Source: an uncultured Gammaproteobacteria bacterium (GTDB taxonomy: Bacteria > Patescibacteriota > Patescibacteriia > UBA1558 > 2-01-FULL-52-15). Taken from it: a DNA stretch of 64,000 nucleotides. This document shows, piece by piece, positions 1,505-61,534 of the stretch. How positions within the stretch are numbered: the stretch's first letter is position 1; each line of letters begins with the position of its first letter. Where the stretch lies: positions 234,982 through 298,981 of the forward strand of contig CAYOCJ010000002.1 in assembly GCA_964402565.1 (NCBI GenBank), read 5' to 3'. The notes under the pieces are model-generated. The model was not told where the DNA came from and did not search any database. It worked only from the letters and a program-made list of their open reading frames with translations. The position numbers and the translations under genes were made by a program.

Positions 1505-2197
1505 CTAGTTCCACTTTTTGATAGTCAGGGCTGATGCTGCAGCATTTGTTTCTGCTTCCTGTTTGCTCATGCCATTGCCTTCAGCAATTAATTCCTTGTC
1601 CAGATAGACGCCGACGGTAAAATGCTTATTATGGTCAGGGCCTTCTTGTTTCAGGATCTTGTAGCGGGGAGTGATATTGTGGATCTCCTGAGACTTTTCC
1701 TGGAATTTGCTCTTTGCATCGAGATACAGTTTTTGATCGAGGATGGTCTGGAATTCAGGGATCAGATGTTCGAGAATGAATTTTTTTGTGACCTCAAGGC
1801 CTTGATCGAGGTAGATCGCGCCGATAAGCGCTTCATAGGCGTTTGCCATGATATACGATCGCGCCTTCGGGCTTTGATCACGCGCTTCCCCGCGACTCAT
1901 ATGCATCAGTGGGTACAGGTCCAGATCTTCGGCACGCGAGGACAGCATTTTATAGTTCACCAGGCTTGACCGCCAATTCGTCAGCTCGCCTTCAGGATTT
2001 GAAAAATGCTGATAGAGATATTCAGTAACGACGAGCTCGAGAACCGCATCGCCGAGGAATTCAAGGCGTTCATTGTGATCCAGCGCAAAGCTCTTATGTT
2101 CATTCAGATAGGAACGGTGCACCAGAGCACTGCGCAGAATATCGGTATCGTTGAAATTAATTTTCAGCTTCTGTTCTAACGCTTCCAGTTTGTTCAT
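1505..2197 (-). CDS. rnc: Ribonuclease III
   Basis: 230 aa. N-terminus LEQKLKINFNDTDILRSALVHRSY matches the RNase III signature region. C-terminal dsRBD-like KQEAETNAAASALTIKK. Stop lies 4 nt before the smc start. Confidence 0.9.
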   Translation of the reverse strand: MNKLEALEQKLKINFNDTDILRSALVHRSYLNEHKSFALDHNERLEFLGDAVLELVVTEYLYQHFSNPEGELTNWRSSLVNYKMLSSRAEDLDLYPLMHMSRGEARDQSPKARSYIMANAYEALIGAIYLDQGLEVTKKFILEHLIPEFQTILDQKLYLDAKSKFQEKSQEIHNITPRYKILKQEGPDHNKHFTVGVYLDKELIAEGNGMSKQEAETNAAASALTIKKWN

Positions 2198-9095: not shown

Positions 9096-10019
9096 ATGCT
9101 CTATTTTTTAGGAATCTATTTGGCCGCATTGCTGCTCTTCGTTGCTTTGCTTATGTCTCTGGCAGAGTTGTTCTGGGTATTCGATAACTTCATAAATTTT
9201 ATACCTCAATTTTTGTTCCTCACTGTTCTCTGTATCATTGCATTGCTTGCCGAAGGGAGTTTCTGGCAGGCGCTCGCGATGTGCTGCGTTTTTGTATTCT
9301 TTGCTATGCCATTAGTGCGCGTGAGGTATCCGGGCCGCAGTGCATCAGTGGCGGGCGATCGCTCGCTTACCGTTTTGCAGGCAAATGTAAATCTTAAAAA
9401 TACGAAGTACGATCGGCTGATCAAGGTAATCCGCGAAGCAAAACCGACCATGATCATGATGAATGAGGTTACTGCAGCCTGGATCGATCGCGTCACCAAA
9501 GCTACCGCAGCAACCCACCTGTATCGGATCGTGCTGCCCAGCACAACATATCGCGGCATGGCTGTTTTTTCTCAATGGCCTATCGCTTCGCATGATGTCT
9601 TGGAACTGACCAAAAAAAATTCACCGCTCATTCGTGTCCATATGCAGGATGTGCCGCTGACGATCTATGTAGCGCATCCGCTGCCTCCCATGACGCCGGG
9701 CTGGTCATCGCACCGTGAAATATTTTTTAAACGATTAGCTGTAGAGGTCCGAAAATCCACAGACGACGTGTTGGTGGTTGGCGATCTTAATACTACATTC
9801 TTCAGCCCGTTGCTTCGAACATTTTTGAAAACCTCAGGTTTGAAGCTCGACAGACAAGGCTTTGGGGTGAAGACGACGTGGATGCGCGGCACGCCTCTGG
9901 CTTTGCCGCTGGACCATATTTTGTATCGAGGCAGCCTGACAATGACCGATCTCAAAGTAATGAGCTCTATTGGGTCTGATCATCGGCCTGTGCTCGCCAC
10001 TTTTAATTATGCGCGCTAA
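9096..10019 (+). CDS. Endonuclease/exonuclease/phosphatase (EEP) family protein with N-terminal TM helices
   Basis: LTVLQANV near the start of the catalytic domain, VVGDLN, and C-terminal SDHRPV motif typical of the EEP fold. Three N-terminal hydrophobic helices. Confidence 0.75.
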   Translation: MLYFLGIYLAALLLFVALLMSLAELFWVFDNFINFIPQFLFLTVLCIIALLAEGSFWQALAMCCVFVFFAMPLVRVRYPGRSASVAGDRSLTVLQANVNLKNTKYDRLIKVIREAKPTMIMMNEVTAAWIDRVTKATAATHLYRIVLPSTTYRGMAVFSQWPIASHDVLELTKKNSPLIRVHMQDVPLTIYVAHPLPPMTPGWSSHREIFFKRLAVEVRKSTDDVLVVGDLNTTFFSPLLRTFLKTSGLKLDRQGFGVKTTWMRGTPLALPLDHILYRGSLTMTDLKVMSSIGSDHRPVLATFNYAR

Positions 10020-10028
10020 ACTATAGGT

Positions 10029-22061: not shown

Positions 22062-22248
22062 TTTGCCTCCAGGAAAGGGTTAGCTGCGCCTTCGTTTTTT
22101 GCAAAGAACTGGTACCGATAACTTCTACTATAGTTGGGCTATTTTAGCAAGTATTTACAAGGGTTTTTGGGGCCTTTAAACCTGTTTACTTTCCGTTTTT
22201 TTTATGCTACTATTATATGGTTAAAATTAGGTTTTCATATACTTTTTT

Positions 22249-26888: not shown

Positions 26889-27131
26889 ATGGCATCATTT
26901 GAAACACCAGAGGATCATGTTCGGGAGCAATTCGAATTAAGCATCGCAGCTTCTCAGCGACGTATCGATGCAGCCAATGATGCGCTCAGGGGTTCTCTGA
27001 GCGAAGGCGAACGAATCCGCATGGCACAAGAACTGCACGAAGCAACGCTTGAACTTCGCGGGTTTCAGGAAACGCTTGATAGCATGTATGGAGAAAAACC
27101 AGCAGAGCAGGAAACTGAGGTTTCAGGCTAG
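26889..27131 (+). CDS. Hypothetical small protein (80 aa)
   Basis: Acidic helical protein immediately after ruvB, no motif. Confidence 0.4.
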   Translation: MASFETPEDHVREQFELSIAASQRRIDAANDALRGSLSEGERIRMAQELHEATLELRGFQETLDSMYGEKPAEQETEVSG

Positions 27132-27830
27132 TTTCGGCAATGCGTCGGTAATGACGTGGTACTGGTTCCAATTCATCGGGTTCACGAGTACCTGAATGGA
27201 TTTTTCTTGTAAGTAGGGACTGGGATCATATGGCAGTCCGTCGCTCATAAAGATATATACTTTATTGTCTGTAGGGTTTAAATATTGCGCTCGAATTTGC
27301 CACGCGACGGTGTGTGAAGAAAATGAACCCTGCGGTGTGGAGGTTATGGGCTGTATGTCCATGACTGTTGCAGTAATGCGTGTTCCGGTCGACTCAAGTT
27401 GCTGCACTTCCTTTTTACGTTTATGGAGAAATAGAATGAAGAATGAAGTAATTCCAATGAGTATAATGCCAACAATGGTCATAACGACAGAGCTCGTGTA
27501 TGCGCCAAGAGCATTATTTTTAATCATTGCGTTTCGAGGATTTACCGGATCGTAAAGAATTTCAAGCATCGTACCGACAGGGTAATCAGGAGTATTCTGA
27601 GCAGTAAATCGTTCGGGCTCATTATTTTGCAGTTGAAATTCAATGATCGAATTATACGTAATTTTATCCTTAGTACTCTGTCGATCAACTAGTACAACCT
27701 TTCCATTGGTCGTAATTCCAATTTTTTGCAGTCGTTGAACGTTTAGATACCCTGAAATACCAAAATAAATAAAAAGACCAGCGATTGCAATGAAAAAAAA
27801 TGCCCCGGCGTGGCTGTAGATTTTTTTCAT
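27123..27830 (-). CDS. Hypothetical two-TM membrane protein (DUF3592-like)
   Basis: N-terminal TM, beta-rich domain, central TM, second beta-rich domain. Confidence 0.45.
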   Translation of the reverse strand: MKKIYSHAGAFFFIAIAGLFIYFGISGYLNVQRLQKIGITTNGKVVLVDRQSTKDKITYNSIIEFQLQNNEPERFTAQNTPDYPVGTMLEILYDPVNPRNAMIKNNALGAYTSSVVMTIVGIILIGITSFFILFLHKRKKEVQQLESTGTRITATVMDIQPITSTPQGSFSSHTVAWQIRAQYLNPTDNKVYIFMSDGLPYDPSPYLQEKSIQVLVNPMNWNQYHVITDALPKLA

Positions 27831-29151: not shown

Positions 29152-30468
29152 ATGAATCAAATCAGACCGGACACGCGGAAACCGGTGAAAGCCTCGGAGC
29201 TCGCCGGTATGGCGGGACGGTGTGTCGAGGTTACCGGCTTTGTCCATCAGATCCGTAAGGTCGGTGGACTCCACTTCGTACTTCTCAGGACCAATGACTC
29301 GGTGATTCAGTGCACCAACGAGCCTGCGGAGAGCACGGTTGATCCTGCTCGCTACACGGTCGGCAACTATGTTGTTGTTCGCGGTGTCGTGAGAGCTGAA
29401 GAGCAGGCCCGTCATGGGGCCGAAATCGTGCTCAGCGAAATCGATGTGCTGACTTTGCCGACAGCTTTGCCGCCGTTCGCTCTCAACAAGAAGGAACTTA
29501 AAGCCGAACTGGGGGCTATACTGGACTATCGTCCGGTCAGTCTCCGCCACTCGAAGCAGCGGGCAATCTTCAGAGTCCAGGCAGCTCTGGCTCAGCTGTT
29601 TCGCGAAGCACTGCTCGCAGTTGGGTTCACCGAGATCCATTCACCCAAAATCGTCTTCGCTGGAGCCGAAGGCGGCGCAAACGTCTTTAAGCTCGACTAC
29701 TTCGGGGAGACGGTCTGTCTTGCACAGAGCCCACAGTTCTACAAGCAGATGATGGTCGGGGTTTATGGCCGAGTGTGCGAGATCGGGCCTGTTTTCAGGG
29801 CTGAGAGCCACTCGACATCGCGCCATCTGAATGAGTACATGTCGCTCGACTTGGAGATGGGACCGATTGCAGGTTTCACGGATGTCATGGCGGTCGAGGC
29901 ATATGTCATTCAGCACATGCTTTCTCGGATCAGCGAGCTGTGTCCGCAGGAACTGGAGTTGCTCGAAGCGAAGGTTCCGAAGATCGAGTCGATTCCCGCC
30001 ATAAGGATGTCCGAAGCGCTTGATATCGTCGGCAGATCCAGAACCGAGTATGATCGGACGGATCTTGACGCTGAGGGCGAACGGCTCGTCTGTGGGCATG
30101 TACAGGAACAGACCGGAAGCGAATTTGTCTTCGTGACCCACTATCCGCGGTCGAAGCGGCCGGTCTACGCCATGGACGATCCCGAGGATCCGGAGCTGAC
30201 ACTCAGTTTCGACTTGCTCTTCAGGGGGCTCGAGATCACGACTGGTGGCCAGCGGATTCACGGGTACGACGAGCAGGTTCAGAAGCTCAAAGATTTTGGC
30301 ATGAAGCCAGGCCAATTCGAGAGCTTCCTGCTCATGCACAAGCACGGCATGCCGCCGCACGGCGGCCTCGCCATCGGACTGGAACGCCTGACGATGCTTC
30401 TGCTGGGACTGTCCAGCGTCAAGGAGACGAGTCTCTTCCCGAGGACCGTCGATCGCATCACACCGTAG
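29152..30468 (+). CDS. aspS: Aspartate--tRNA ligase, archaeal/eukaryotic type (AspRS2-like), in a GC-rich insert
   Basis: 438 aa. N-terminal OB fold (VEVTGFVHQIRKVGGLHFVLLR), QSPQFYKQ aspartate-recognition motif, motif 2 FRAESHSTSRHLNEY, motif 3 GMPPHGGLAIGLERL, C-terminal ...LFPRTVDRITP. Collinear with Pyrococcus/Thermococcus AspRS over its whole length. Local GC clearly above backbone. Confidence 0.85.
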   Translation: MNQIRPDTRKPVKASELAGMAGRCVEVTGFVHQIRKVGGLHFVLLRTNDSVIQCTNEPAESTVDPARYTVGNYVVVRGVVRAEEQARHGAEIVLSEIDVLTLPTALPPFALNKKELKAELGAILDYRPVSLRHSKQRAIFRVQAALAQLFREALLAVGFTEIHSPKIVFAGAEGGANVFKLDYFGETVCLAQSPQFYKQMMVGVYGRVCEIGPVFRAESHSTSRHLNEYMSLDLEMGPIAGFTDVMAVEAYVIQHMLSRISELCPQELELLEAKVPKIESIPAIRMSEALDIVGRSRTEYDRTDLDAEGERLVCGHVQEQTGSEFVFVTHYPRSKRPVYAMDDPEDPELTLSFDLLFRGLEITTGGQRIHGYDEQVQKLKDFGMKPGQFESFLLMHKHGMPPHGGLAIGLERLTMLLLGLSSVKETSLFPRTVDRITP

Positions 30469-33889: not shown

Positions 33890-33916
33890 AGAGAGGTTCC
33901 GTTTTGGAACCTCTCT
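33890..33916. terminator. Convergent hairpin (11-bp stem) between the methyltransferase and paralog-C genes
   Basis: agagaggttcc-gtttt-ggaacctctct. Contains the stop codon of the minus-strand gene. T-rich on the minus side. Confidence 0.45.
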
Positions 33917-35213
33917 AGAGAAGGTCGCTGCGCGCGTCTCTGGGGAACAGGATCGTCTCCCTGATATGCGGCAGACCGAGAATGAGTTGTATCAGACGCT
34001 CGATGCCAATGCCTACGCCGGACATTGGCGGCAGCGCATGGCGCACCGCGTTAATGTAGAGAGGGAAGTTGCCAGGGTCCAGTCCGCGTAACTGCATCCT
34101 CGTGAGTAATTCAGTCAGGTCGGTGACGCGTTCGGCGCCGTCGGCGATGTCGGTTACCCGCGGGTGCCACAGCTGAAAGTCGAAGCAGGTCAGCCTGCCA
34201 CCGACGTCTCTGGCTCGTGAGTAGAAGGCTTTTGATTCCGCGGCTTGGTCGATGATCCAGAAGAAGGAACCGAAGCGTTTCCTGATTGCTAAGAGAGCGT
34301 TTTTAGGCACGGTTGAGGTTGAACCCCATTCCAGATCTACGCCCCCACTGTTCAGATAGGAGACCAGATCGCTGTATGTGATTACCTCGAAGTTTCTCAG
34401 GTCATCAAAGCTTACTTCCAGTAGCGCCAGTTCATCAGCGCATGAGCCGGATACTTCATCCAGGATGCAGTTGATCATCAAGTTGATCATACGGATCATG
34501 TCATCACGGTCCGCGTACGCGGAGGTGATATCCAGTACCGTGAACTCGCTTAGGTGAATGCTGGTATGTGACTTGGTCGCCCGGAAGCACGACCCGATCT
34601 CGTACACCCGGTCCAGGTTGCCGCCGAGAACTGCCATGTGGTACAGCATGTTGCTGAGCGACAGGTAGGCCTTTCGGCCAAAGTAGTCGACCGGAAATGC
34701 TTCTACCGGGCCCTCAACGGATTCACCCACGATGCTTGGTGAGGAAACCTCAACGAATCGCTGAGTGGTAAGAAAGTCCCGGATCGCTTTGAGCACCGCG
34801 CTCTTTACCCGGAAGATTGCAGTCACCCGGGGGTTTCTGAGATCCAGGTGCCTGTTCTGCAGGCGAAGCACGCGTGCAGTCGTGGAGTCGATGCTCGGGG
34901 GCGTTTCATCCGGTTCGGTCAGCACCTCGATACCGGCAAGGCCGAGTTCATATCCGAGAATACCGGATTTTACGATCTTATTGGAGCGGAATATTCCGTC
35001 TGCGACGATCACTGACCCTTTTTGAGGAACAGCCATGGCTGGGCTGTCGATGACACACTGGATGCATCCTGCGGGTGTCACCAGATTCAGAAACGTAAGG
35101 CTCTTTCCTGCTTTTCTGATCTGCTGAACCCGGCCGGTAAACCGGACGTGCTTGTCGGCAAATTGAGGCGGATTCAGGAAACACCGCCTCATCTCTTCTA
35201 TGAGACTGATCAC
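33915..35213 (-). CDS. Divergent AspRS/AsnRS-family paralog, full length with OB fold but substituted motif 2 (GC-rich insert)
   Basis: 432 aa. GTG start with AAGGAGA SD 5 nt upstream. OB fold VRFTGRVQQIRKAGKSLTFLNLV. Core reads YLSLSNMLY (in place of QSPQ), motif 2 FRATKSHTSIHLSEF (Glu to Thr, Arg to Ile versus FRAE..RHL), motif 3 GVGIGIERLIQLILGLPHIRETILFPRD. High GC. Confidence 0.75.
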   Translation of the reverse strand: MISLIEEMRRCFLNPPQFADKHVRFTGRVQQIRKAGKSLTFLNLVTPAGCIQCVIDSPAMAVPQKGSVIVADGIFRSNKIVKSGILGYELGLAGIEVLTEPDETPPSIDSTTARVLRLQNRHLDLRNPRVTAIFRVKSAVLKAIRDFLTTQRFVEVSSPSIVGESVEGPVEAFPVDYFGRKAYLSLSNMLYHMAVLGGNLDRVYEIGSCFRATKSHTSIHLSEFTVLDITSAYADRDDMIRMINLMINCILDEVSGSCADELALLEVSFDDLRNFEVITYSDLVSYLNSGGVDLEWGSTSTVPKNALLAIRKRFGSFFWIIDQAAESKAFYSRARDVGGRLTCFDFQLWHPRVTDIADGAERVTDLTELLTRMQLRGLDPGNFPLYINAVRHALPPMSGVGIGIERLIQLILGLPHIRETILFPRDARSDLL

Positions 35214-45812: not shown

Positions 45813-46445
45813 TCATTTGAAAAGCCTCTTGCCCTGCTTATTCCATTCGATGACCTTGCCGAAAGACGCCTCGATGCTGTCGGCCTTTCGAAGGCTTTGT
45901 AAGTTGCTTGTTGGTGCAACAGGCAGATGCTTTGATCGGTCGAGCGCACGGGGAATAAAAAAGAGGTCTTGTTCGCTTATCATCCAGTGTTTGTTGTCGA
46001 ATATTGAGAGGTCGAAAGGCAGCGAATACGAGAGCATGGTTTTTGTGCCATTGTTAAGGAAGTATTCATGAAAATAGGAAAGAGCTAGCTCTCGAATATT
46101 TTTATATACCGGCTCGCGGTAGCGGAGGACGGCATGATTGGTCTTACTGACTGCGCCCCAGTAGCCATTTTTCTTGAAAAGGGCTACCACATGATCGTCG
46201 TCGCCTTTGGCGGATTTCAGATCCATAATGAATGGTTTGTGGCCATGCAAGCGGAGCGCGAGCGCAGCGAGCATTGCACCTTCCATGCAATGCGCCTTCT
46301 TTTCACGTAGCACGCGCCTAGGCGACATGCAGGTTTCGCCTTTCAATTCGAAATTATTTGCGATTGAATTCAAAAAGTCCTGGATTTTAGAAGGTGTGTC
46401 CAGCTTTCGTACTAATTGCAACTCGGGTGCCGTCAGATTAAACAT
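45813..46445 (-). CDS. Hypothetical protein with a possible transglutaminase-like Cys-His-Asp core
   Basis: KAHCMEGAMLAALALRLHGHKPFIMDL ... DDDHVVALF resembles the papain-like transglutaminase core. Weak. Confidence 0.35.
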   Translation of the reverse strand: MFNLTAPELQLVRKLDTPSKIQDFLNSIANNFELKGETCMSPRRVLREKKAHCMEGAMLAALALRLHGHKPFIMDLKSAKGDDDHVVALFKKNGYWGAVSKTNHAVLRYREPVYKNIRELALSYFHEYFLNNGTKTMLSYSLPFDLSIFDNKHWMISEQDLFFIPRALDRSKHLPVAPTSNLQSLRKADSIEASFGKVIEWNKQGKRLFK

Positions 46446-46493
46446 AGATTTAGTATAGCGTTTTTTTCTTTTTATTGTTATAGTAGCGTTACT

Positions 46494-48336: not shown

Positions 48337-51300
48337 ATGGGTGAACCATTAATGCCAGGAGGAGGGGTCCATGATCCAGAGCGAAAGCCTTCCGGCGTTG
48401 ATCCGGATAGAGAATCTCCCGTAAACGATCTGGGGGCAGATGATGCACCTCATCTTACTGTTGAACGCCCGCCCCAGGACTCTGATCACGCAGCTCTGGA
48501 TGATGCGGCAGGAAGTTTAGAGTTGAACGAGTATGAAAATGATTTTTATGCTGGCTTGCCCGCTGAAGGCGGCTTGCCTGACATAGTCGATTTTTTGAGC
48601 TCCTGGAGTCACCCGGTCATCGATGAAACAGGAAAATCCTTTACGTCCCAGGAGATAGCCTCAACTATGCTCGAAATCGAGACCTATTTGAAGGGTAGTC
48701 CCAAGGCGACTCCCGCTGACGAAAATTTGAAAGCATTGCTTGACCGCATTCCCACCTATGGCGCTTTGAAGGCGACAGTATATAATCGTCTAGACTTTGC
48801 ATTACCGATTCCTGATGACGCAGTACTGACAAATCCTGACGCAATGCCAGCTGCCGCAAAGCCCGCAGATGATCCAGCAACCCCTGACACTCCAGCCTCA
48901 CCTGATGCTGGCGCAACTTCTGACACAGCGACTCCTGATGCTCAATCATTGCCCGATGAAGCTTCAAAAACTGGCTCACCTGCAGCACCAGATGCCGCTA
49001 CCGCTGATTCACCTGATGTGCCGCTGGTAGCGCCGACACCGCCAGTTGAAACTCCTCCGGATGCCGCTGAAGGTAAACCAGATGATGCAGGCGAACTGGA
49101 ACCGGAATTAGTTTTTGAGTCGGGTGACTCGCTTGTCGAAGAAAAAATTGGAGAGCGGACTATCATTGGTGCTTTTAATACACGCGAAGGCGGATACAAT
49201 GTAACAAGATACCAAAAGACCGGTAAGCGGGATCATTATGTCTTGAAGGAGGACATGATACGCCAGATGCTCTCAGGCCAGCGGAAAGAAGGTACGTGGA
49301 AATTTGAAAAGAAAGGAGCGCAAGCAGCTGACACAAGACCTGACGAACCAAAGGGTCCGGACGCGCCTGTCGATGCGCCGCCGATAGATGCGCCTGATGG
49401 AAAAGGCGCAGAGCCCAAAACTGACGACGCGCCCAAAGGACCTGAAACACCCGTACCAGTAGAACCAAAAACCCCTGATGCGCCAGGCGATGGTAAGCCG
49501 CCGGCCGGAGATCCGAAGCCTGAGCCTAAATCCGAACCAAAACCTGAACAACGGGATGATATTTTTAAGGAGGAGAACTTGCTCAAAGAGCTGGAGCTTT
49601 TTGGCATAAGCAAAGCCGATATGGAAAAGGTAGAGGGGTATGCAGGCTTGTCACTGGGACAAAAGTGGGTGATGCTTGAGAATTTCAAACAGTCAGCAGT
49701 CGGCCGTATCCATGAGGACTCCGCTCGTTCGCTGCAAATGAAAACGTCGAAAGCAGCTATACCAAAGAGGCTCTGGATGGCAATCGTACAACCATATTTT
49801 CTTTCGAAGGAGCGGAAAGCTCAAGCAAGCGCGATAGAAAAAGGAGGCATAGCGGAGCACGGAGAAACACTCATGGCTCTGGCGCAGGGCATGGCAGAAT
49901 TCGGCCCTGAAGTTGCGATCGTGGATGGCGCTCTAGAGACGCAATTCATAAACACGAAAGAGATAGTAGATTTTGAGAAGATGAGTGATGAAGAGAAAGA
50001 AATTATCTCAGAATATAATCATTCTGCGAATTCCTTTTCAATGACACCCTATGAATGGTCATTATCTACTGCTTCTGGCTCAGAGCGCAGAAAATATGCT
50101 CGGGCTGAAAAGATGTTCATAGAAGCGCGCGATGCTTTGCGGTTAGCCAATGCAGCGCGAGTGGAAGATCAAAAAAAGCCGACCATGGATATTTTTGGAG
50201 CTGACGAACAAGTGCGATTGCAGCAAATGCTGAACCAGCATCAGGATGTGGAGCAGACATTACTCGATATAAAATCTGACCGCAGCTGGAAGCCGGTCTT
50301 GAAAACCATGGCTTCAGCTTCTGGGAAAGGACTGTATTTCGCCGGTGGCTTCGCTGCAAGAAGTGCTGCTGTCGGCCTGCTGGGCACCTTGGGAGCGCCG
50401 GTTATGGCGGCCGGGATTGGCGGCATCAATGGATGGCTAAGGAGCAAAAAAGAGCTGCTCGAACAGGATCGTTTGGCACGAAAAGGCTTGGTGACCAATA
50501 AAGAAACAGCCCGCAACGTGGTGGCCGCGGATAAGGTTATTGAGAAAAAAGCCAAGGAAGGTGAAGAACAGATGAAGGAAATTCCGGTTGGTTTGTCCAA
50601 TAAACTTGATGCATTGATGGCACGCATTGCCCAAGCACCAGACGGCTCGGATGAAAAAAAGAAATTGATGGTTTCTCTGAAAGCGCGCATGGATTATACC
50701 GATACCAAGATCAATAACGGTTTGGTTTCATTCGGCACTGGTGCAGAATCTATTGCGGGTAAATTCTCGCTTGCAGAATCGCTTGCGAAAGCGAACATGG
50801 TCCTTGAGATCGAAAAGCCAAATGCTGAAGTTGTGCAGTCATTGAATACTAGAATTGACCGATACCTGGCACGGGCTGACAAGAAAATAGATCAAAAGCG
50901 CTGGGAGTATACAAAAAAGAATATAAAGAAAGGCGCTTTGTGGGCTGGCATTATTTCGGGCGCTGGTGTCGGCACGAGAGCGATCGCCGAGCACTATCAT
51001 TGGCTCGATGGCGCCACGGCTTGGGCGAAAGACCATATGCCGTTCCGCGGAGGACATGCGCACCCGCATTATGAGGCAACACCGGTTACGCCAGGTTCTG
51101 AACCGTATGTGCCTACAACGCTTGATACCCATGATTACCTGCATGACGCAGAGGTGCTGCACACCCATCCTGAGTGGGAAGGTATTGCGCCGGATGCAGC
51201 GACGCAGGGCGTTGCGAATGACGGAAGTGTTGAAGCTATGGTGCATGAGGCAGTCGCAAAATCAGCTGCAGAGAGTGTTCCAGCTGTCCATGTAGAAATT

Positions 51301-52302
51301 CATGAGGGTGAAGGAATGATCAAAGCATTGACCCGCAGCCTCGAAGAGCAGCATCACCTGGATCATGAGAAAGCGGCCGAGCTTGCAAATCAGCTCTATG
51401 TATCTGATGCTGACAGGATGTACGACTTGGTACATGCCGGAGATACATTCGATATTAACCTGAAGGACGTTCATGATCTGGATTTTTACACCAAGAGCGC
51501 TGCAGAGCTTGCGAAGTCGGCCGATTATGATCCGTCACATTTCGAAAGCGCGAGCGGCATAGAACCTCAGATGGATCTGCCAGATATAGCGCATCACGCT
51601 GAAATACCTGCTGCGACACCAGATCATGCGGTGCATGCGGTTGATCTCAATGCAGCAAAAAATGCACCTCATTTCGCGAACGCTGCTACGGAAAAGTATT
51701 TTTCTGATCACGGAGTCCGCTATGACCAGGAAACAGGTAATTTATTTTTCAATCACGACAATCACATTTTGACGTACCGGATAAAAGATCACCTCGCAGG
51801 CTACGATAATACACTTTCAGTCGATACGGACGGCAATTATCATTTGACTCAGACTGACGGACACTCGACGCGGGTATTTTCTTTTGACAAGGACGGGCAG
51901 ATCCTGCCGTCCGCATCACCGCATGTCGAACAGCCGATAGCGCCAAAGGCGCCGGAAAATTTCAACAATTCATTGGTAGTCGAGGGTAGAGGAGCTGCTA
52001 AATTGCTCGATAGAAAGATGTCTATGAATAAAATGCTCGATTATCTGGAGTCGACGCATCCCGGCCTTCATAAAAAACTCGATGCCATGTCTGCACTTGA
52101 GGCAGCAGGCAGGAAGGGCGCATTTGTGAAGCACCTGGAATCTGCCCTTGGCATCACCAAATCTGAAGCTAGTAAATTGGCTAAACCGATCCGGTTCATT
52201 TTCGAACACGCTGAAAAAGGTTTTAAAGCCGGAGGCGAACCGCTTGAGTCTGATGATACGATCGGAGCAACATTGGACCGCCTCAAACTGGAAGTAAAAT
52301 AG
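48337..52302 (+). CDS. Giant hypothetical protein (1321 aa) with Pro/Asp/Ala-rich low-complexity N-terminal third, central Gly-zipper hydrophobic segments and His-rich C-terminal half
   Basis: Single uninterrupted ORF. No N-terminal signal peptide seen. Hydrophobic GLYFAGGFAARSAAVGLLGTLGAPVMAAGIGGINGWL and ALWAGIISGAGVGTRAI segments. HAHPHYE / HTHPEWE / HHLDHEK His clusters. Confidence 0.7.
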   Translation: MGEPLMPGGGVHDPERKPSGVDPDRESPVNDLGADDAPHLTVERPPQDSDHAALDDAAGSLELNEYENDFYAGLPAEGGLPDIVDFLSSWSHPVIDETGKSFTSQEIASTMLEIETYLKGSPKATPADENLKALLDRIPTYGALKATVYNRLDFALPIPDDAVLTNPDAMPAAAKPADDPATPDTPASPDAGATSDTATPDAQSLPDEASKTGSPAAPDAATADSPDVPLVAPTPPVETPPDAAEGKPDDAGELEPELVFESGDSLVEEKIGERTIIGAFNTREGGYNVTRYQKTGKRDHYVLKEDMIRQMLSGQRKEGTWKFEKKGAQAADTRPDEPKGPDAPVDAPPIDAPDGKGAEPKTDDAPKGPETPVPVEPKTPDAPGDGKPPAGDPKPEPKSEPKPEQRDDIFKEENLLKELELFGISKADMEKVEGYAGLSLGQKWVMLENFKQSAVGRIHEDSARSLQMKTSKAAIPKRLWMAIVQPYFLSKERKAQASAIEKGGIAEHGETLMALAQGMAEFGPEVAIVDGALETQFINTKEIVDFEKMSDEEKEIISEYNHSANSFSMTPYEWSLSTASGSERRKYARAEKMFIEARDALRLANAARVEDQKKPTMDIFGADEQVRLQQMLNQHQDVEQTLLDIKSDRSWKPVLKTMASASGKGLYFAGGFAARSAAVGLLGTLGAPVMAAGIGGINGWLRSKKELLEQDRLARKGLVTNKETARNVVAADKVIEKKAKEGEEQMKEIPVGLSNKLDALMARIAQAPDGSDEKKKLMVSLKARMDYTDTKINNGLVSFGTGAESIAGKFSLAESLAKANMVLEIEKPNAEVVQSLNTRIDRYLARADKKIDQKRWEYTKKNIKKGALWAGIISGAGVGTRAIAEHYHWLDGATAWAKDHMPFRGGHAHPHYEATPVTPGSEPYVPTTLDTHDYLHDAEVLHTHPEWEGIAPDAATQGVANDGSVEAMVHEAVAKSAAESVPAVHVEIHEGEGMIKALTRSLEEQHHLDHEKAAELANQLYVSDADRMYDLVHAGDTFDINLKDVHDLDFYTKSAAELAKSADYDPSHFESASGIEPQMDLPDIAHHAEIPAATPDHAVHAVDLNAAKNAPHFANAATEKYFSDHGVRYDQETGNLFFNHDNHILTYRIKDHLAGYDNTLSVDTDGNYHLTQTDGHSTRVFSFDKDGQILPSASPHVEQPIAPKAPENFNNSLVVEGRGAAKLLDRKMSMNKMLDYLESTHPGLHKKLDAMSALEAAGRKGAFVKHLESALGITKSEASKLAKPIRFIFEHAEKGFKAGGEPLESDDTIGATLDRLKLEVK

Positions 52303-58066: not shown

Positions 58067-59650
58067 TTACTTTTTCCAGTTTTTCTTATGTGTCAATCGA
58101 TAGTACCCAATGGCTTTCCTATGTACTTCATCGCGGATCCTTCTCAGGAAAAGCATGACCGGGTCGCTTTTCGGGCTTGATATGCTCTTTGCTCTGCCAG
58201 GAACGAAAAGCTCTTCCTCACGTTTCGCGAGTGCCGTAACCTTCTCTTTCCATGCAGCAGGCAGTATCGGGTAGACTGTATGCAATTGCGGTTTTCCTCC
58301 GTCAAGCACGATAAGGTCCGGTTCACCCCATTCCGGATGATTGCTCCGGCGCATCAGCATTTCTTTCATCATGGCAACATCATTTGAGCCTTTCACCGTT
58401 TTAATTTTGAAGCGCTTATATTCAGATGGCCGTAAGACACCATTGATCGCAACGACCATAGCGCCTACTGCATAGGAACCCTGTACATTAGAAATATCAT
58501 ATACTTCGATGCGTCGAGGCAATGCAGCAAGACTAAGCATTTCCTGGATTTTATAGAGCACATCAGGCAAGGGCTTTGTTTTCGTTGCTGAATGGTAATA
58601 AAGCGCAGCATTTTTTTCAGCAAGATCCAGAAACTTTTTTTGCATGCCTTTTTGAGGGATCAAAATACCCAATGGAGCCAATGCTTTCACGGCAGCCGAG
58701 CTTAACTCCAAGGGCACGAGTACTTCTTTTGGTTTTAATGCCGGCGGCGCATAGTATTGTAGGAGAAAAGACTCGAGCAATTCATTTCTTTCCAACGAAA
58801 GCTTATTTTCAAAAAAATAACTCAGTTTGTCGTGAATTTGTCCGCGCCGTATCTGCAATACGGTGATGACCGCGTGAGCGTCTATCCGGACAATGCCTAT
58901 CACATCGCGATTATATTGCTCATGCGAGATGATATGCTGCGGTTCATAGACAGATTCCCAGGCTTTGATCTTATCTCGAAGGAGTGCTGCCTGCTCGAAA
59001 TGTTTGCTCCGCGAAAACTCAGCCATTTGTTTCCGCATTTCATCAACGATAAACTTTCCTTCTCCTTTCAGAATACGCCGAGCTTTCTCTATCAGTGCGT
59101 CGTATTCGCTTGCCCCGATCAGCTCCTGGCATGGACCAAAGCAATTACCCAAATGGTATTGCATGCAGACGATTCCGTTCGGAAGTTTTGAGAGATCTCG
59201 TTTACAGGTGCGAAGCGGCAGCATCCGGTGGATCAGCCTGACTATGATCCGCGCGGCAGCTCCAGATGTATAGGGGCCAAAGTATTCGCCTTTCAAATTC
59301 TTCCTGCCATGTACGGTCATGATGCGAGGGAAGGTTTCTTTCGTAATGACAATATAGGCCCATGTCTTATCATCGCGAAGAACGACATTGTATTTGGGCT
59401 GATATTTTCGTATCAGGCCTGCTTCGAGGAGTAAGGCTTCTTTTTCTGAGTTGACTGCGATGATATCAACATCCTTGATCTCATCCACCATCAGCCTTTT
59501 AGAAGGGGATAGATCAGCATCTTTCGCAAAATAAGACCGAACCCTATTTTTCAGGTTCTTTGCTTTACCAATATAGATCAGCTCGCCGGCCGTATCATAA
59601 AACCTGTAAATTCCAGGGGAGCTCGTGAGACTCGTCAGATTCGGTTTCAT
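58067..59650 (-). CDS. uvrC: Excinuclease ABC subunit C
   Basis: N-terminal GIY-YIG (PGIYRFYDTAGELIYIGKAKNLKNRVRSY), UvrB-binding region, RNase H-like endonuclease domain. 527 aa. Confidence 0.9.
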   Translation of the reverse strand: MKPNLTSLTSSPGIYRFYDTAGELIYIGKAKNLKNRVRSYFAKDADLSPSKRLMVDEIKDVDIIAVNSEKEALLLEAGLIRKYQPKYNVVLRDDKTWAYIVITKETFPRIMTVHGRKNLKGEYFGPYTSGAAARIIVRLIHRMLPLRTCKRDLSKLPNGIVCMQYHLGNCFGPCQELIGASEYDALIEKARRILKGEGKFIVDEMRKQMAEFSRSKHFEQAALLRDKIKAWESVYEPQHIISHEQYNRDVIGIVRIDAHAVITVLQIRRGQIHDKLSYFFENKLSLERNELLESFLLQYYAPPALKPKEVLVPLELSSAAVKALAPLGILIPQKGMQKKFLDLAEKNAALYYHSATKTKPLPDVLYKIQEMLSLAALPRRIEVYDISNVQGSYAVGAMVVAINGVLRPSEYKRFKIKTVKGSNDVAMMKEMLMRRSNHPEWGEPDLIVLDGGKPQLHTVYPILPAAWKEKVTALAKREEELFVPGRAKSISSPKSDPVMLFLRRIRDEVHRKAIGYYRLTHKKNWKK

Positions 59651-59727
59651 TGGAAAAGTTTAGCCTTTTTAAGCTTAAATAACAATATTTTTGTATTTGT
59701 GCCCTAATGTTAGCAAAAGTATTACTA

Positions 59728-59756
59728 TTGACAAAAAATAGTATATATGATATTAT
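59728..59756 (+). promoter_or_regulatory. Consensus promoter TTGACA-17-TATTAT upstream of the GC-rich cassette
   Basis: ttgaca 59728-59733, tattat 59751-59756, AT-rich context. Downstream AAGGAG SD before ATG 59834. Confidence 0.5.
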
Positions 59757-59833
59757 ATATGGTTATAAGCTTTCGTTCATTTCCATTTTCCCGCATGCCT
59801 TGAGCATGTGGCGTATGTAACAAGGAGCTAGCG

Positions 59834-60421
59834 ATGAAATCCGTCAGAGAGTTGATCTCGATCATCAAGGCCGAGCTTGCTGTCATGCAGACTCTGTTCC
59901 CGCCGATTTCGGTGGGGCCCGTCCGCTGCGACGGTTTCACGGCCGAAGAACTGGAACTCGCGTTCCAGACCGAGGCGATGTATGTGAGTACGTTGCACGA
60001 ACGCGAGCAGCGAGAGCTGCGCGAGAAGAGCGCCAAGAAGCTCGAGCGCATCCTGGCCAGCCTCCGTCAGCGGAAGAACAACTTCCTGTCGCGGATGGCC
60101 CAGGCCTTCGCCGTGAAGGCCGAGCGGATCAACGTCTACGACATGGCGAAGTACTACGGTCTCGGGGACGACGAGGAAGCACAGCAGCAGTGGCAGATCA
60201 TGAAAGCTTCGCTCGCGGTGATCCTGAAGATCAACAACCTGCTCGTCACGAAAGACATGCCGGCCAAGGCGAGGCTCGAAGCCGCGTCGGTGCTGTACCA
60301 CGAAGGCCTCAACGAGGTCGCCGGTCTCCGCGATCGGTTCGAGCGGTACTGCGTCGGTCGGATGCAGGCTGTGCAGCTGCTCCGAGCTTTCGACATGCCG
60401 GACAACCGCCAGGTCGCTTAA
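59834..60421 (+). CDS. Hypothetical protein (195 aa), first gene of GC-rich cassette
   Basis: Uninterrupted ORF in 60%+ GC DNA with good SD. Helical, acidic, no motif. Confidence 0.6.
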   Translation: MKSVRELISIIKAELAVMQTLFPPISVGPVRCDGFTAEELELAFQTEAMYVSTLHEREQRELREKSAKKLERILASLRQRKNNFLSRMAQAFAVKAERINVYDMAKYYGLGDDEEAQQQWQIMKASLAVILKINNLLVTKDMPAKARLEAASVLYHEGLNEVAGLRDRFERYCVGRMQAVQLLRAFDMPDNRQVA

Positions 60422-60443
60422 CAGCGGCCACGAGGAGCCTGTC

Positions 60444-60566
60444 ATGACTTCCAGATCCATTTTCGGAGCGATCCTCATCCTCGCAGGTACCCTCGCGGGT
60501 TACCTGTTCCACTCAAACCACGTGAGCCGCAAGGCTCAGGCAGTCAAGGTCTCGGCCAAGAACTGA
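60444..60566 (+). CDS. Small single-TM peptide (40 aa)
   Basis: GAGGAG SD 6 nt upstream. MTSRSIFGAILILAGTLAGYLFHSNHVSRKAQAVKVSAKN. Confidence 0.4.
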   Translation: MTSRSIFGAILILAGTLAGYLFHSNHVSRKAQAVKVSAKN

Positions 60567-60574
60567 TCGATCCG

Positions 60575-61057
60575 ATGCCGCACATCCGCGGCCTCAAGGA
60601 GAAATCCGTGAAGATCATCATCAAGGTGCTTCTGCTGATCGGCGTGCTGCTGTTCGTCTACGGCGTCTTCGCCGACCGGGGACTCGTTTCTCTGTGTGGT
60701 GTCATCACCACCGCGGCAACGTTCGTGGCGGACGGGTTCCTTCGCGGTCGGAAGAAGCCGGTCGGCTCGCCGATCGTGACGGCCAATCCGTTCAATGCCG
60801 ATTCGCGGCAGGCCGCGATCGATTTCGCGAAGCGACTCCACGAGCGGGCCAGCAAGCCCTCAACCATCGTGAATCCGGACAAGATCCGGGTTCGCAGCGG
60901 CAGCGTCGTGGTCTTCAGCCACAACGGCTCCGGCTTGGTCCGCGGCAAGGTCGGGCGCGTCAACAACAAGAAAGGCAAGTTCGACGCCACGATCGACGGA
61001 GGTCAGGTGGTCTCCGCGCAGATCAAGGATGTCAAACAGGTCTTGCGCGCCTACTGA
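60575..61057 (+). CDS. Hypothetical membrane protein (160 aa; two TM helices + beta-rich C-terminal domain)
   Basis: KIIIKVLLLIGVLLFVYGVFA and LVSLCGVITTAATFVA helices. C-terminal IRVRSGSVVVFSHNGSGLVRGKVGRV... Confidence 0.55.
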   Translation: MPHIRGLKEKSVKIIIKVLLLIGVLLFVYGVFADRGLVSLCGVITTAATFVADGFLRGRKKPVGSPIVTANPFNADSRQAAIDFAKRLHERASKPSTIVNPDKIRVRSGSVVVFSHNGSGLVRGKVGRVNNKKGKFDATIDGGQVVSAQIKDVKQVLRAY

Positions 61058-61096
61058 CACAACCCGCCGACAAGGCGACACAGGAGGAAGCGAAGG

Positions 61097-61168
61097 ATGG
61101 GAGCGGTCGCTATGCTTTTCCTGATCCTCTTCATCTTGAACAACGGGCGCAGACGGACCCGCTGACTG
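61097..61168 (+). CDS. Tiny hydrophobic peptide (23 aa) with basic C-terminus
   Basis: AGGAGG upstream. MGAVAMLFLILFILNNGRRRTR. Confidence 0.25.
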
Positions 61169-61303
61169 AAAGTCGGCACGGAGTCGTCAGCGCACTCTGA
61201 CAAAACAAGCCGAAAAGGCTTTTAGGAGGGGTGATGCACACCTACGCATCGGGAACACCACCGTGAGTACGCTCACGGATGGAGCAACAAAAAAATTGAA
61301 TCG

Positions 61304-61337
61304 AGGGACGGTCTACGGGTCGTCCCTTTTCTTTTTC
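61304..61337 (+). terminator. Rho-independent terminator closing the GC-rich cassette
   Basis: agggacg-N10-cgtccct followed by TTTTCTTTTTCT. Confidence 0.55.
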
Positions 61338-61534
61338 TCACGTTTGTATAGTCCGGCCATTCAGTTCTCCTTGACTCGCGATGACTGCCCTAGGAATTTT
61401 GGCAGGCTGGTGTCAGCTCTCCCGCTCGTCATCGTCGAACTGCATGGCCGGATACATACTATGAACGCCTGGCTCTTGACCCGTTACCAGTATCGCAGTA
61501 TACTGTTCGCTAGCTTTTATTTTTTCTCCCACAA

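What the first reader, a model, noticed from the sequence alone, without database searches (positions are those of the whole stretch)
59728..61337. GC-rich four-ORF cassette with its own consensus promoter and terminator inserted between uvrC and uvrA; encodes two tiny hydrophobic peptides
A ~1.6-kb block of 60%+ GC DNA sits in a ~47% GC, AT-rich-promoter backbone. It starts with a perfect TTGACA-17-TATTAT promoter and an AAGGAG SD, and ends with a clean rho-independent terminator. It contains:
- a 195-aa helical acidic protein,
- a 40-aa single-TM peptide (strong SD),
- a 160-aa two-TM protein with a beta-rich domain,
- a 23-aa hydrophobic peptide ending RRRTR (type I toxin-like shape).

uvrC and uvrA are normally unlinked or directly adjacent. 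An acquired membrane-active cassette here is unexpected. It could be a toxin/immunity or envelope-stress module horizontally acquired from a high-GC donor, for example an actinobacterial host if this is an episymbiont.
Basis: partly seen in the sequence, partly recalled or inferred. Interest (0 to 1): 0.6.

Follow-up and report, generated by a model that had tools for sequence, protein, structure and literature searches.

The report
Hypervariable GC-rich operon between uvrC and uvrA
The GC-rich four-gene block is real, but rather than a one-off gene capture from a high-GC host it looks like this genome's version of a fast-evolving, persistently GC-rich accessory operon of unknown function that sits at the same spot in a whole clade of ultra-small (CPR) bacteria.

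Summary
A 1.33-kb stretch (59834-61165) of 61% GC and GC3 0.73-0.85 lies in a 47-48% GC backbone. It sits between divergent uvrC and uvrA, behind an 11/12 extended -10 promoter. Every ORF has a strong SD, and a clean terminator follows. Corrections: ORF1 is basic, not acidic; ORF3 probably starts at GTG 60608 (149 aa); ORF4 is 22 aa.

The closest relative (UvrC 81%) has an empty 127-bp site. More distant relatives (UvrC 77-53%; nearest named ones are Ca. Komeilibacteria, Patescibacteria) carry a GC3-rich operon at the same site and in the same orientation. Four of them also share the promoter.

- One relative has a two-gene version whose membrane protein is homologous to ORF3.
- Others carry a 218-228-aa helical family that is always the GC3 outlier of its locus.

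No cassette protein has any other homologue. ORF1 was checked against 1.84 billion representative proteins. No actinobacterial donor is visible.

Best reading: a clade-resident, hypervariable, recombination-prone accessory operon that the nearest relative has lost. It encodes a soluble helical protein plus small membrane proteins. A conflict-type role (defence, exclusion or immunity) is my inference, not a result.

The parts
59657..59685 (-). uvrC promoter TTGTTA-17-TAAACT. The -10 ends 6 nt before the uvrC ATG, so the mRNA is probably leaderless. It lies outside the cassette and marks its left limit.
   Evidence: Read from the sequence. It is conserved in L002 as TTGTTA-17-TACACT-6-ATG. The -10 hexamer 6 nt before the start is listed.
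59704..59713 (.). Near-palindrome CTAATGTTAG, 14 nt upstream of the cassette -35. It could be an operator or an UP-like element.
   Evidence: It is conserved as CTAATATTAG in L014 and L015 and absent from L002 (alignment A3). Its function has not been tested.
59728..59756 (+). Cassette promoter TTGACA-17-TATTAT with an extended -10 TG.
   Evidence: 11 of 12 matches. The core TATTGACAA...TGnTAnTAT is conserved in L015, L014, L017 and L019.
59763..59833 (+). AT-rich 5' UTR with a small hairpin (59790-59811) and the AAGGAG SD of ORF1.
   Evidence: fold z = -1.3, not significant. L014 has an analogous hairpin followed by a GGGAGG SD.
59834..60421 (+). ORF1: 195 aa, soluble, all-helical, pI 8.85. 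It is the positional equivalent of L014 ORF-A and of the 218-228-aa family.
   Evidence: GC3 0.84. The AF2 model is all-helical, pLDDT 61. There is no homologue. Similarity to the family is only suggestive: hhalign P = 0.07 and shuffle p = 0.047.
60444..60566 (+). ORF2: 40 aa, one TM segment (about residues 4-24) and a basic C-terminal tail. Specific to this window.
   Evidence: GC3 0.73; SD -8.1. It was called as a gene in the Logan assembly. There is no equivalent in L014.
60608..61057 (+). ORF3: 149 aa from GTG (160 aa if from ATG 60575). It has two N-terminal TM helices and a very basic (pI 10.7) beta-containing C-terminal domain, predicted to be cytoplasmic, with a GRVNNKK motif.
   Evidence: The AF2 model is poor, pLDDT 49. 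It is homologous to L014 ORF-B: BLASTP 26% over 116 aa, E = 0.002. The Smith-Waterman score is 53 against 28 +/- 4.4 for shuffles, reached by 0 of 2000.
61097..61165 (+). ORF4: 22 aa, a hydrophobic stretch followed by NNGRRRTR. Specific to this window.
   Evidence: GC3 0.78; SD -10.3.
61166..61338 (+). Structured 3' UTR, including a 10-codon mini-ORF (61234-61266) with an AGGAGG SD, and the intrinsic terminator 61303-61328 with its T-run. The terminator has an A-run on its other side, so it could act in both directions.
   Evidence: (z = -3.5).
61350..61455 (.). Long imperfect hairpin of about 105 nt, between the terminator and the uvrA promoter. It is absent from L002 and L014, and its role is unexplained.
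   Evidence: Inverted repeat 61352-61367 / 61437-61452, 94% complementary. Fold z = -3.05 on the + strand and -4.74 on the - strand. It is unique in the window and has no Rfam match.
61476..61504 (+). uvrA promoter TTGACC-17-TATACT. It lies outside the cassette and marks its right limit. The uvrA ATG is at 61536.
   Evidence: It is conserved in L002 and L014 as TTGACG...CAGTATACTG.

Best explanation
The block is this genome's allele of a hypervariable accessory operon. The operon occupies the gap between the divergent uvrC and uvrA promoters in a clade of Komeilibacteria-like CPR (Patescibacteria) bacteria.

Shown:
- A near-consensus extended -10 promoter and strong SDs, both unusual for this genome, drive a soluble helical protein (ORF1). 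In this allele it is followed by a 40-aa TM peptide, a 2-TM protein with a basic C-terminal domain (ORF3) and a 22-aa TM peptide, then an intrinsic terminator.
- Relatives carry a GC3-rich operon at the same site and in the same orientation. Four of them share the promoter. The protein sequences have diverged to, or beyond, the limit of detection.
- The nearest relative, L002, has none.

Inferred:
- The locus is old in the clade and L002 lost it.
- The high GC3 is a property of the locus, not the fingerprint of a recent high-GC donor. It could be maintained by frequent recombination or allelic replacement (GC-biased gene conversion), or by exchange within a shared GC-rich allele pool through the conserved flanks, much as O-antigen loci are exchanged.
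- The products form a cytoplasmic-face membrane complex with a conflict-type role. Examples are a soluble sensor plus a membrane effector for phage exclusion or abortive infection, or a toxin/immunity pair. This last step is the weakest.
For: Same site, orientation and anomaly in relatives:
- L014 (UvrC 77%) has promoter TTGACA-17-TAATAT, a GGGAGG SD, a 184-aa helical ORF-A, a 125-aa 2-TM ORF-B and a terminator, followed by the conserved uvrA promoter. GC is 0.58-0.635 and GC3 0.86-0.87, against uvrC GC3 of 0.54.
- The L015 contig ends inside the same promoter.
- L017, L018-L021 and L024 carry a 218-228-aa helical family at the site. Mutual phmmer E-values are 1e-12 to 1e-30, and GC3 is 0.81-0.90 against 0.65-0.69 for the uvrC/uvrA genes of the same loci. 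In L017 and L018 it is the top GC3 ORF of the locus.
- The promoter core and SD align across window, L015, L014, L017 and L019.

Homology between versions:
- ORF3 to L014 ORF-B.
- L014 ORF-A to the 228-aa family: hhalign P = 0.001 over 110 columns, including the LDxAG motif.

Nature of the GC shift: it affects all codon classes (C/(C+T) 0.87, G/(A+G) 0.79, four-fold G+C 0.82), and rpsA does not share it, so translational selection is unlikely.

Recombination: between near-identical strains L018 and L020, 16 of 21 SNPs fall in 1.4 kb spanning the locus and the 5' end of uvrC.

The site is variable. It is empty in L002. L005 and L022 hold other genes there. L004 has about 300 nt of 57% GC sequence and no uvrA within 400 nt.

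Literature: recombination is associated with higher GC3 in bacteria (PMC4450053).
Against: - ORF1 itself is not demonstrably homologous to ORF-A or to the 228-aa family. BLASTP finds nothing, shuffle p is 0.28-0.49 pairwise, HMM shuffle p is 0.047, and hhalign covers only 25 residues at P = 0.07. Non-orthologous replacement cannot be excluded.
- The closest relative lacks the locus, which on its own fits a gain as well as a loss.
- ORF2, ORF4 and the 105-nt hairpin have no counterpart elsewhere.
- The SNP clustering rests on one strain pair and 21 SNPs.
- No functional evidence exists. There is no Pfam, PHROG, PADLOC or NCBIfam hit above threshold. The models are poor and the fold searches empty.
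- Expression was not tested.
Confidence: 0.55

Rival explanations
1. Recent horizontal acquisition of a moron-like transcription unit from a donor of about 62-65% GC, either a bacterium or its phage or plasmid.
For: - Composition z = 8.2 and GC3 of 0.85 against about 0.5 in the backbone.
- All ORFs have strong SDs in a genome where about 10% of genes do.
- The unit has its own promoter and terminator, which matches the definition of a moron (PMC3594210).
- It is absent from the nearest relative.
- The proteins are ORFans, as is typical of mobile-element genes.
Against: - The promoter and the positional equivalents, with the same GC3 anomaly, occur in lineages with UvrC identity down to 53%.
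- ORF3 has a homologue at the same site in L014.
- The promoter and 5' UTR are 33% GC, like the host.
- No donor-side homologue exists among about 15 billion proteins, even though Actinobacteria are densely sampled.
- There is no integrase and there are no flanking repeats.
Confidence: 0.2
2. A family of small mobile cassettes repeatedly targets the gap between the uvrC and uvrA promoters by site-specific or flank-mediated capture, each lineage having acquired its own version. The 105-nt hairpin would be a recombination site or a scar.
For: - Gene content at the site differs between lineages.
- An empty site exists.
- A strongly structured, window-specific hairpin lies at the right border.
- Other palindromic repeat units lie upstream of uvrC in L003 and L004.
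Against: - There is no recombinase gene in or next to the cassette.
- There are no terminal direct or inverted repeats.
- The hairpin is unique in the window and absent from L014.
- Left-flank similarity decreases with host distance, as expected for vertical descent.
Confidence: 0.15
3. Functional rival: the cassette is a toxin or lysis module. ORF4 and/or ORF2 would be type I-like membrane toxins, or ORF3 a holin-like 2-TM protein, left over from a phage lysis cassette.
For: - ORF2 and ORF4 have the shape of small membrane toxins, with a hydrophobic core and a basic tail.
- ORF3 and L014 ORF-B have two N-terminal TM helices plus a charged C-terminal part.
- L014 ORF-B gives a sub-threshold hit to Phage_holin_2_3: E = 0.004, 17.6 bits against a cut-off of 28.8.
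Against: - No endolysin, spanin or antitoxin RNA is evident.
- ORF2 and ORF4 sit inside an operon behind a strong constitutive-looking promoter, which is not a type I TA layout.
- There are no PHROG or Pfam holin hits for ORF3.
- ORF2 and ORF4 are missing from the L014 version.
Confidence: 0.08
4. Assembly chimera or contaminating DNA.
For: Only the abrupt change in composition.
Against: - An identical 7.3-kb Logan contig spans both junctions and was seen in 2 samples.
- Both flanks continue in conserved synteny.
- An analogous GC-rich block lies at the same site in independent assemblies from other samples.
Confidence: 0.02

Closest known systems
Hypervariable, compositionally atypical loci flanked by conserved genes, for example the E. 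coli/Salmonella O-antigen clusters between galF and gnd (PMC7685785; comparison from my own knowledge)
   Same: - Fixed chromosomal position between conserved housekeeping genes.
- A conserved promoter at the 5' end.
- Gene content and sequences that differ drastically between relatives.
- Base composition that deviates from the genome in every lineage.
- SNP clustering in close strains that suggests exchange through the flanks.
   Different: - The deviation is towards high GC, not low.
- The locus is tiny (1-4 genes, under 2 kb).
- It encodes no glycosyltransferases or recognisable enzymes.
- Its products face the cytoplasm rather than the surface.
- The organisms are CPR bacteria.
Phage 'morons' (PMC3594210)
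   Same: It is an autonomous transcription unit with its own promoter and terminator and a GC content different from its neighbours. It encodes small membrane proteins; HK97 gp15 is a membrane exclusion protein encoded by a moron.
   Different: It does not lie in a prophage, since the flanks are uvrC, secG, RNase J and uvrA. It is also positionally conserved across a bacterial clade, not scattered among phage genomes.
Two-component abortive-infection or exclusion systems with a soluble sensor and a small membrane effector, such as lambda RexA/RexB (from my own knowledge; a lead only)
   Same: A soluble protein of about 190 aa is encoded next to a small polytopic membrane protein, expressed from a strong independent promoter, and evolves fast.
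   Different: There is no sequence or profile similarity to any PADLOC model. RexB has four TM helices whereas ORF3 has two. No phenotype is known.
The uncharacterised 218-228-aa helical protein family next to uvrC in Ca. Komeilibacteria-like genomes (L017, L018-L021, L024)
   Same: Same site and orientation, strong SD, all-helical prediction, similar length and the same GC3 excess. L017 and L019 also share the promoter core. Collinear short motifs can be seen by eye: N-terminal helix-FP, acidic-x-W, and L(D/E)xA(G/S)xxY(H/R).
   Different: Statistical support for ORF1 is marginal. ORF1 lacks the long Arg/Glu-rich C-terminal coiled-coil tail. In those genomes the family is not followed by an ORF3-like gene.

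Membership tests
Horizontally acquired genomic islet (recent HGT) | Base composition and codon usage differ from the host genome | tested here: met
   GC 0.61 against 0.47-0.48, GC3 0.73-0.85 against about 0.5, and tetranucleotide z = 8.2.
Horizontally acquired genomic islet (recent HGT) | Patchy presence: absent from close relatives at an otherwise syntenic site | tested here: inconclusive
   It is absent from L002 (UvrC 81%). However, positional equivalents are present in L014, L015 (77%), L017, L018-L021 (56-57%) and L024 (53%).
Horizontally acquired genomic islet (recent HGT) | Homologues in a plausible donor lineage | tested here: not met
   There is no homologue outside this locus family in any search.
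Horizontally acquired genomic islet (recent HGT) | Mobility signatures: integrase, tRNA target, flanking repeats | tested here: not met
   There is no recombinase ORF and there are no flanking direct or inverted repeats. The only tRNA is 54 kb away.
Phage moron | Own promoter and terminator, and a GC content unlike the neighbouring genes | tested here: met
   the definition is taken from PMC3594210.
Phage moron | Located within a phage or prophage genome | tested here: not met
   The flanks are housekeeping genes in conserved synteny. There are no PHROG hits.
Type I toxin-antitoxin | Small hydrophobic toxin peptide under 60 aa | tested here: met
   ORF2 is 40 aa and ORF4 22 aa. Both have a hydrophobic core and a basic tail.
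Type I toxin-antitoxin | Stand-alone toxin mRNA with an overlapping or adjacent antisense RNA antitoxin | tested here: not met
   Both peptides are internal or last genes of a four-gene operon. No antisense promoter was found opposite them, and there is no Rfam antitoxin match.
Type I toxin-antitoxin | Toxicity on overexpression | not testable with these tools
   This needs an experiment.
Holin / phage lysis cassette | Small protein with 1-4 TM helices and a charged C-terminus | tested here: met
   ORF3 has two TM helices and a +15 C-terminal part.
Holin / phage lysis cassette | Profile match to a holin family, and an adjacent endolysin | tested here: not met
   ORF3 has no Pfam or PHROG holin hit. 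L014 ORF-B has only a sub-threshold hit. There is no muralytic gene in the operon.
uvrC-adjacent 218-228-aa helical protein family (CPR) | Significant sequence or profile similarity to family members | tested here: inconclusive
   ORF1: hhalign P = 0.07 over 25 columns, HMM shuffle p = 0.047, ranked second among 2057 decoy ORFs. L014 ORF-A: hhalign P = 0.001.
uvrC-adjacent 218-228-aa helical protein family (CPR) | Position and orientation, with conserved promoter, strong SD and elevated GC3 | tested here: met
Known anti-phage defence systems (PADLOC) | Match to a defence-system protein model | tested here: not met
   There are only chance-level hits: Cas11e E = 0.004 and JetB E = 0.005 on coiled-coil stretches.

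The most novel reading that the evidence does not exclude
The uvrC-uvrA gap of Komeilibacteria-like CPR bacteria hosts a previously undescribed hypervariable conflict locus. It would be a soluble sensor plus small membrane effectors, unrelated to any catalogued defence or toxin system. Its alleles would be swapped by natural transformation through the conserved flanks. Its persistently high GC3, in genomes from 47 to 55% GC, would be maintained by GC-biased gene conversion, making it a clean natural test case for gBGC in bacteria.
Probability: 0.2. Interest if true: 0.7.

Novelty: new variant of a known kind. Interest (0 to 1): 0.45.

Why it matters
The finding shows that a textbook-looking 'foreign island' can be a long-resident locus whose odd composition belongs to the locus itself. 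The island has a GC jump, its own promoter and terminator, ORFan proteins and an empty site in the nearest relative. That is a caution for composition-based HGT calls, especially in CPR genomes where donor-host stories are attractive.

If the recombination/gBGC reading holds, the locus is a compact, easily sequenced marker for recombination-driven GC evolution in bacteria. It would also point to a new family of fast-evolving membrane-associated proteins in organisms whose accessory biology is almost unknown. If it does not hold, the block is simply one more small ORFan islet.

Tried and rejected
Searches that found nothing:
- Pfam, PHROGs, PADLOC and NCBIfam on the four proteins gave only sub-threshold noise: UL130, Phytase, DUF3040, SCO2097_fam at 17 bits against a cut-off of 110, and Cas11e.
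- Rfam on 57-64 kb at E <= 1, and on the whole window at gathering thresholds, gave nothing relevant.
- tblastn and blastn against phages and plasmids gave nothing.
- IMG/VR scans with ORF1 and ORF3 gave nothing.
- A metagenome scan with UvrC returned only distant relatives.
- phmmer against PDB gave nothing.

Structure:
- The single-sequence AF2 models are poor: ORF3 pLDDT 49, and ORF1 pLDDT 61 and all-helical.
- Foldseek against BFVD and PDB gave no match with E < 0.7.

Other checks:
- Flanking repeats or target-site duplications: none convincing.
- Copies of the insert or the hairpin elsewhere in the window or in related loci: none.
- The ORF3+ORF-B profile hit window ORF 27123-27830 (a DUF3592 protein), but the match is to a TM segment only and I rejected it.
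- An hhalign shuffle test timed out, and hhalign -glob gave a meaningless alignment. An HMM shuffle test replaced them.
- Translational selection as the cause of the high GC3 was rejected, because the shift covers all codon classes and rpsA lacks it.
- The record titles of the nearest MAGs say 'uncultured Gammaproteobacteria'. I disregarded this. The gene content (RNase J, LDH, PMT_2, PilB) and the named UvrC relatives point to Patescibacteria.
- A literature search for the SRA run found nothing.
Full report
**1. What is in the sequence**

uvrC runs on the minus strand (58067-59650) and uvrA on the plus strand, with its ATG at 61536. The 1885 bases between them contain, in order:
- the uvrC promoter TTGTTA-17-TAAACT (59657-59685, minus strand), whose -10 ends 6 nt before the ATG;
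- an AT-rich (33% GC) segment carrying TTGACA-17-TATTAT with an upstream TG (59728-59756; 11 of 12 matches);
- a 5' UTR ending in AAGGAG;
- four non-overlapping plus-strand ORFs (59834-60421, 60444-60566, 60575/60608-61057, 61097-61165);
- a structured 3' UTR;
- a terminator with an 11-bp stem (61303-61328) and a T-run;
- a long hairpin of about 105 nt (61350-61455);
- the uvrA promoter TTGACC-17-TATACT (61476-61504).

The coding part is 60.9% GC in a backbone of 47-48%. It is the strongest tetranucleotide outlier of the 64 kb, with z = 8.2.

The plus-strand frames are the real ones. GC3 is 0.84, 0.73, 0.85 and 0.78, with GC2 at 0.35-0.46, whereas the overlapping antisense and alternative-frame ORFs show the mirror pattern.

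All four ORFs have strong SDs, from -7.7 to -10.3 kcal/mol. The 42 backbone genes have a median of -2.4, and only about 10% reach -6. ORF3's ATG at 60575 has no SD, while GTG 60608 has AAGGAG-6-GTG. The Logan gene call also starts at 60608, so the protein is probably 149 aa.

A Logan contig seen in two samples is identical over 7312 bases and spans both junctions. The block is therefore not an assembly artefact.

ORF1 is mildly basic, with pI 8.85. ORF3 is probably 149 aa. ORF4 is 22 aa.

**2. The proteins**

- **ORF1** has no TM segment and is predicted to be all-helical (AF2 pLDDT 61).
- **ORF2** (40 aa) has one hydrophobic segment and a Lys-rich tail.
- **ORF3** has two N-terminal TM helices followed by RGRKK and a C-terminal part of about 95 residues with net charge near +15. 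By the positive-inside rule this part should be cytoplasmic (the topology is my inference). Its model is poor (pLDDT 49).
- **ORF4** (22 aa) is a hydrophobic stretch followed by NNGRRRTR.

Nothing significant came from Pfam, PHROGs, PADLOC, NCBIfam, PDB sequences, or Foldseek against BFVD and PDB.

ORF1 and ORF3 found only themselves among 5.8 billion protein clusters. An exhaustive phmmer search of ORF1 against 1.84 billion representatives also found only itself. Phage, plasmid and IMG/VR searches were empty.

**3. Is it an insertion?**

The nearest genome in the species collection is L002, with UvrC 81% identical. There uvrA and uvrC are divergent and only 127 bp apart.

Its intergenic DNA aligns with the window up to about 59716 on the left and from about 61460 on the right. 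Both core promoters are conserved. The window therefore has about 1.75 kb that L002 lacks, lying exactly between the two promoters.

**4. What changed the picture**

A UvrC homologue search showed that the host's named relatives are Ca. Komeilibacteria, Patescibacteria and Kaiserbacteria. The backbone gene content fits this: RNase J, LDH, PMT_2, PilB and a 1321-aa ORFan. The search also gave access to contigs of further relatives.

*L014 (UvrC 77%).* At the same site and in the same orientation it has, in order:
- TTGACA-17-TAATAT;
- a hairpin-containing 5' UTR;
- a GGGAGG SD;
- a 184-aa helical ORF-A;
- a 125-aa ORF-B with two TM helices and a C-terminal GVNNKK motif;
- a terminator;
- the conserved uvrA promoter.

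This block is 58-63% GC with GC3 of 0.86-0.87, next to a uvrC with GC3 of 0.54.

*L015 (UvrC 77%).* The contig ends 131 nt upstream of uvrC, inside the same promoter.

*L017 (57%), L018-L021 (56%) and L024 (53%).* These carry a 218-228-aa helical protein at the site. The proteins are clearly related to one another, with phmmer E-values of 1e-12 to 1e-30. GC3 is 0.81-0.90, against 0.65-0.69 for the uvrC/uvrA genes of the same loci. In L017 and L018 this is the top GC3 ORF of the locus.

The promoter core TATTGACAA...TGnTAnTAT and a strong SD align across window, L015, L014, L017 and L019.

Homology between the versions is uneven:
- ORF3 and L014 ORF-B are homologous. BLASTP gives 26% identity over 116 aa, E = 0.002. 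The Smith-Waterman score is 53 against 28 +/- 4.4 for shuffles, reached by 0 of 2000. The TM part and the soluble part are each individually significant.
- L014 ORF-A is a remote member of the 228-aa family: hhalign P = 0.001 over 110 columns including the invariant LDxAG motif, and HMM shuffle p = 0.012.
- ORF1 is only marginally similar to that family. hhalign gives P = 0.07 over the N-terminal 25 residues, and the HMM shuffle p is 0.047. ORF1 ranks second among the non-members in a set of 2057 ORFs. By eye it shares collinear motifs: helix-FP at the N-terminus, DEEaqqqW against DDDlvsrW, and LEAASVLYH against LDDAGVAYH.

Other relatives have different genes at the site. L005 has a lipoprotein and a TM protein. 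L022 has an SDH-type protease and a TM protein. L004 has about 300 nt of 57% GC sequence.

**5. Reading of the evidence**

The promoter, the orientation, the strong SDs and the GC3 excess are shared by lineages that have diverged to 53-77% UvrC identity. The encoded proteins, by contrast, have diverged to or beyond the limit of detection.

A single recent transfer from a high-GC donor into the window's lineage does not explain this. The most economical account is a locus that is old in the clade, evolves very fast, has variable downstream content, and has been deleted in L002.

The GC excess affects every codon class: C/(C+T) 0.87, G/(A+G) 0.79 and four-fold G+C 0.82. rpsA does not share it. 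The cause is therefore a general GC pressure, not codon adaptation.

Many substitutions must have accumulated without decay towards the host's composition. Something must therefore keep GC3 high. The candidates are GC-biased gene conversion at a recombination hotspot (an association reported for bacteria in PMC4450053), or continual allelic replacement from a shared GC-rich pool through the conserved uvrC and uvrA flanks. The second is the way O-antigen loci, also compositionally atypical in every lineage, are exchanged (PMC7685785; the comparison is mine).

One direct hint of recombination exists. Between the near-identical strains L018 and L020, 16 of 21 SNPs lie in 1.4 kb covering the locus and the 5' end of uvrC. 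This is a single strain pair and should be treated as a lead.

**6. Mechanism**

*Shown:* the block is an autonomous operon with a near-consensus promoter, four SD-led ORFs and a terminator. It sits between two intact housekeeping promoters, so neither uvrC nor uvrA signals are disturbed.

*Inferred:*
- Expression is strong and constitutive.
- ORF2, ORF3 and ORF4 insert in the membrane with their basic tails in the cytoplasm.
- ORF1 is soluble.
- The pair conserved between window and L014 (a helical protein plus a 2-TM protein) is the functional core, and ORF2 and ORF4 are lineage-specific additions.

Extreme divergence, presence/absence variation, small membrane proteins and an independent strong promoter are the hallmarks of conflict genes. 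Such genes include phage exclusion or abortive-infection pairs, moron-encoded exclusion proteins such as HK97 gp15 (PMC3594210), and toxin/immunity pairs. I consider a soluble-sensor plus membrane-effector system the most likely class, with a probability of roughly 0.25-0.3. There is no direct evidence for it, and no PADLOC model matches.

**7. Comparison and novelty**

In architecture the block resembles a moron, but it is not in a prophage. In evolutionary behaviour it resembles a hypervariable locus flanked by conserved genes. The differences are that it is tiny, GC-rich instead of AT-rich, and found in CPR bacteria.

It fails the membership tests for type I TA systems (operon context, no antisense RNA) and for lysis cassettes (no endolysin, no profile hit).

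The protein families are undescribed. I rate it a new variant of a known kind. Interest is moderate: the sequence-only story of 'HGT from an actinobacterial host' is not borne out, but the persistent locus-specific GC3 excess is unusual and testable.

**8. Unexplained**

- The 105-nt hairpin (61350-61455) is absent from L002 and L014 and has no Rfam match. Its fold z-score is -4.7 on the minus strand.
- A 10-codon mini-ORF with an AGGAGG SD lies in the 3' UTR (61234-61266).
- The near-palindrome CTAAT(A/G)TTAG lies upstream of the -35 in window, L014 and L015.

Noticed in passing
window, whole backbone (e.g. 59651-59685, 10000-10028, 22220-22248, 45813-46480): Most backbone genes lack an SD (median duplex -2.4 kcal/mol). 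Seven of 43 genes, uvrC among them, have a -10-like hexamer ending 5-7 nt before the start codon, against 1.3% of random positions. This suggests frequent leaderless mRNAs.
   Followed up: partly
window 29152-30468 and 33915-35213: There are two class II aminoacyl-tRNA synthetase genes (Pfam tRNA-synt_2) with raised GC (0.55-0.57), raised GC3 (0.67-0.69) and strong SDs. The first is the second-strongest tetranucleotide outlier of the window. They may be older horizontal acquisitions or paralogue replacements.
   Followed up: no
window 61350-61455: A strongly structured hairpin of about 105 nt lies between the cassette terminator and the uvrA promoter. It is unique in the window, absent from relatives and has no Rfam match. 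The adjacent terminator has an A-run and a T-run, so it could terminate transcription from both directions.
   Followed up: partly
window 48337-52302: A 1321-aa ORF with no Pfam domain. Syntenic ORFans of 1374-1531 aa follow TrpRS in the Komeilibacteria loci L018-L021.
   Followed up: no
L003 1-216, L004 200-400, L005 5749-5972: Palindromic repeat units of the type GTCATTGCGA...GAAGCAATC lie upstream of uvrC in the relatives with 50% UvrC identity. They look like dispersed REP/MITE-like elements.
   Followed up: no
L005 3413-6000; L022 2629-4697: The uvrA-uvrC interval holds unrelated gene sets in other relatives.
- L005 has a 195-aa lipoprotein with raised GC, a 129-aa TM protein and a 206-aa ORF.
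- L022 has a 90-aa ORF, an SDH-type protease and a 195-aa TM protein with a weak LeoBC (PADLOC) hit, E = 5e-5.

   Followed up: partly
L002-L006, L008, L009 record titles: The ENA titles call these MAGs 'uncultured Gammaproteobacteria/Pseudomonadales bacterium'. Their gene content and their UvrC relatives point to Patescibacteria instead, so the record taxonomy is probably wrong.
   Followed up: partly
window 2157-3056: This ORF combines a NusB domain with a NUDIX domain in one 299-aa product, which is an unusual fusion.
   Followed up: no
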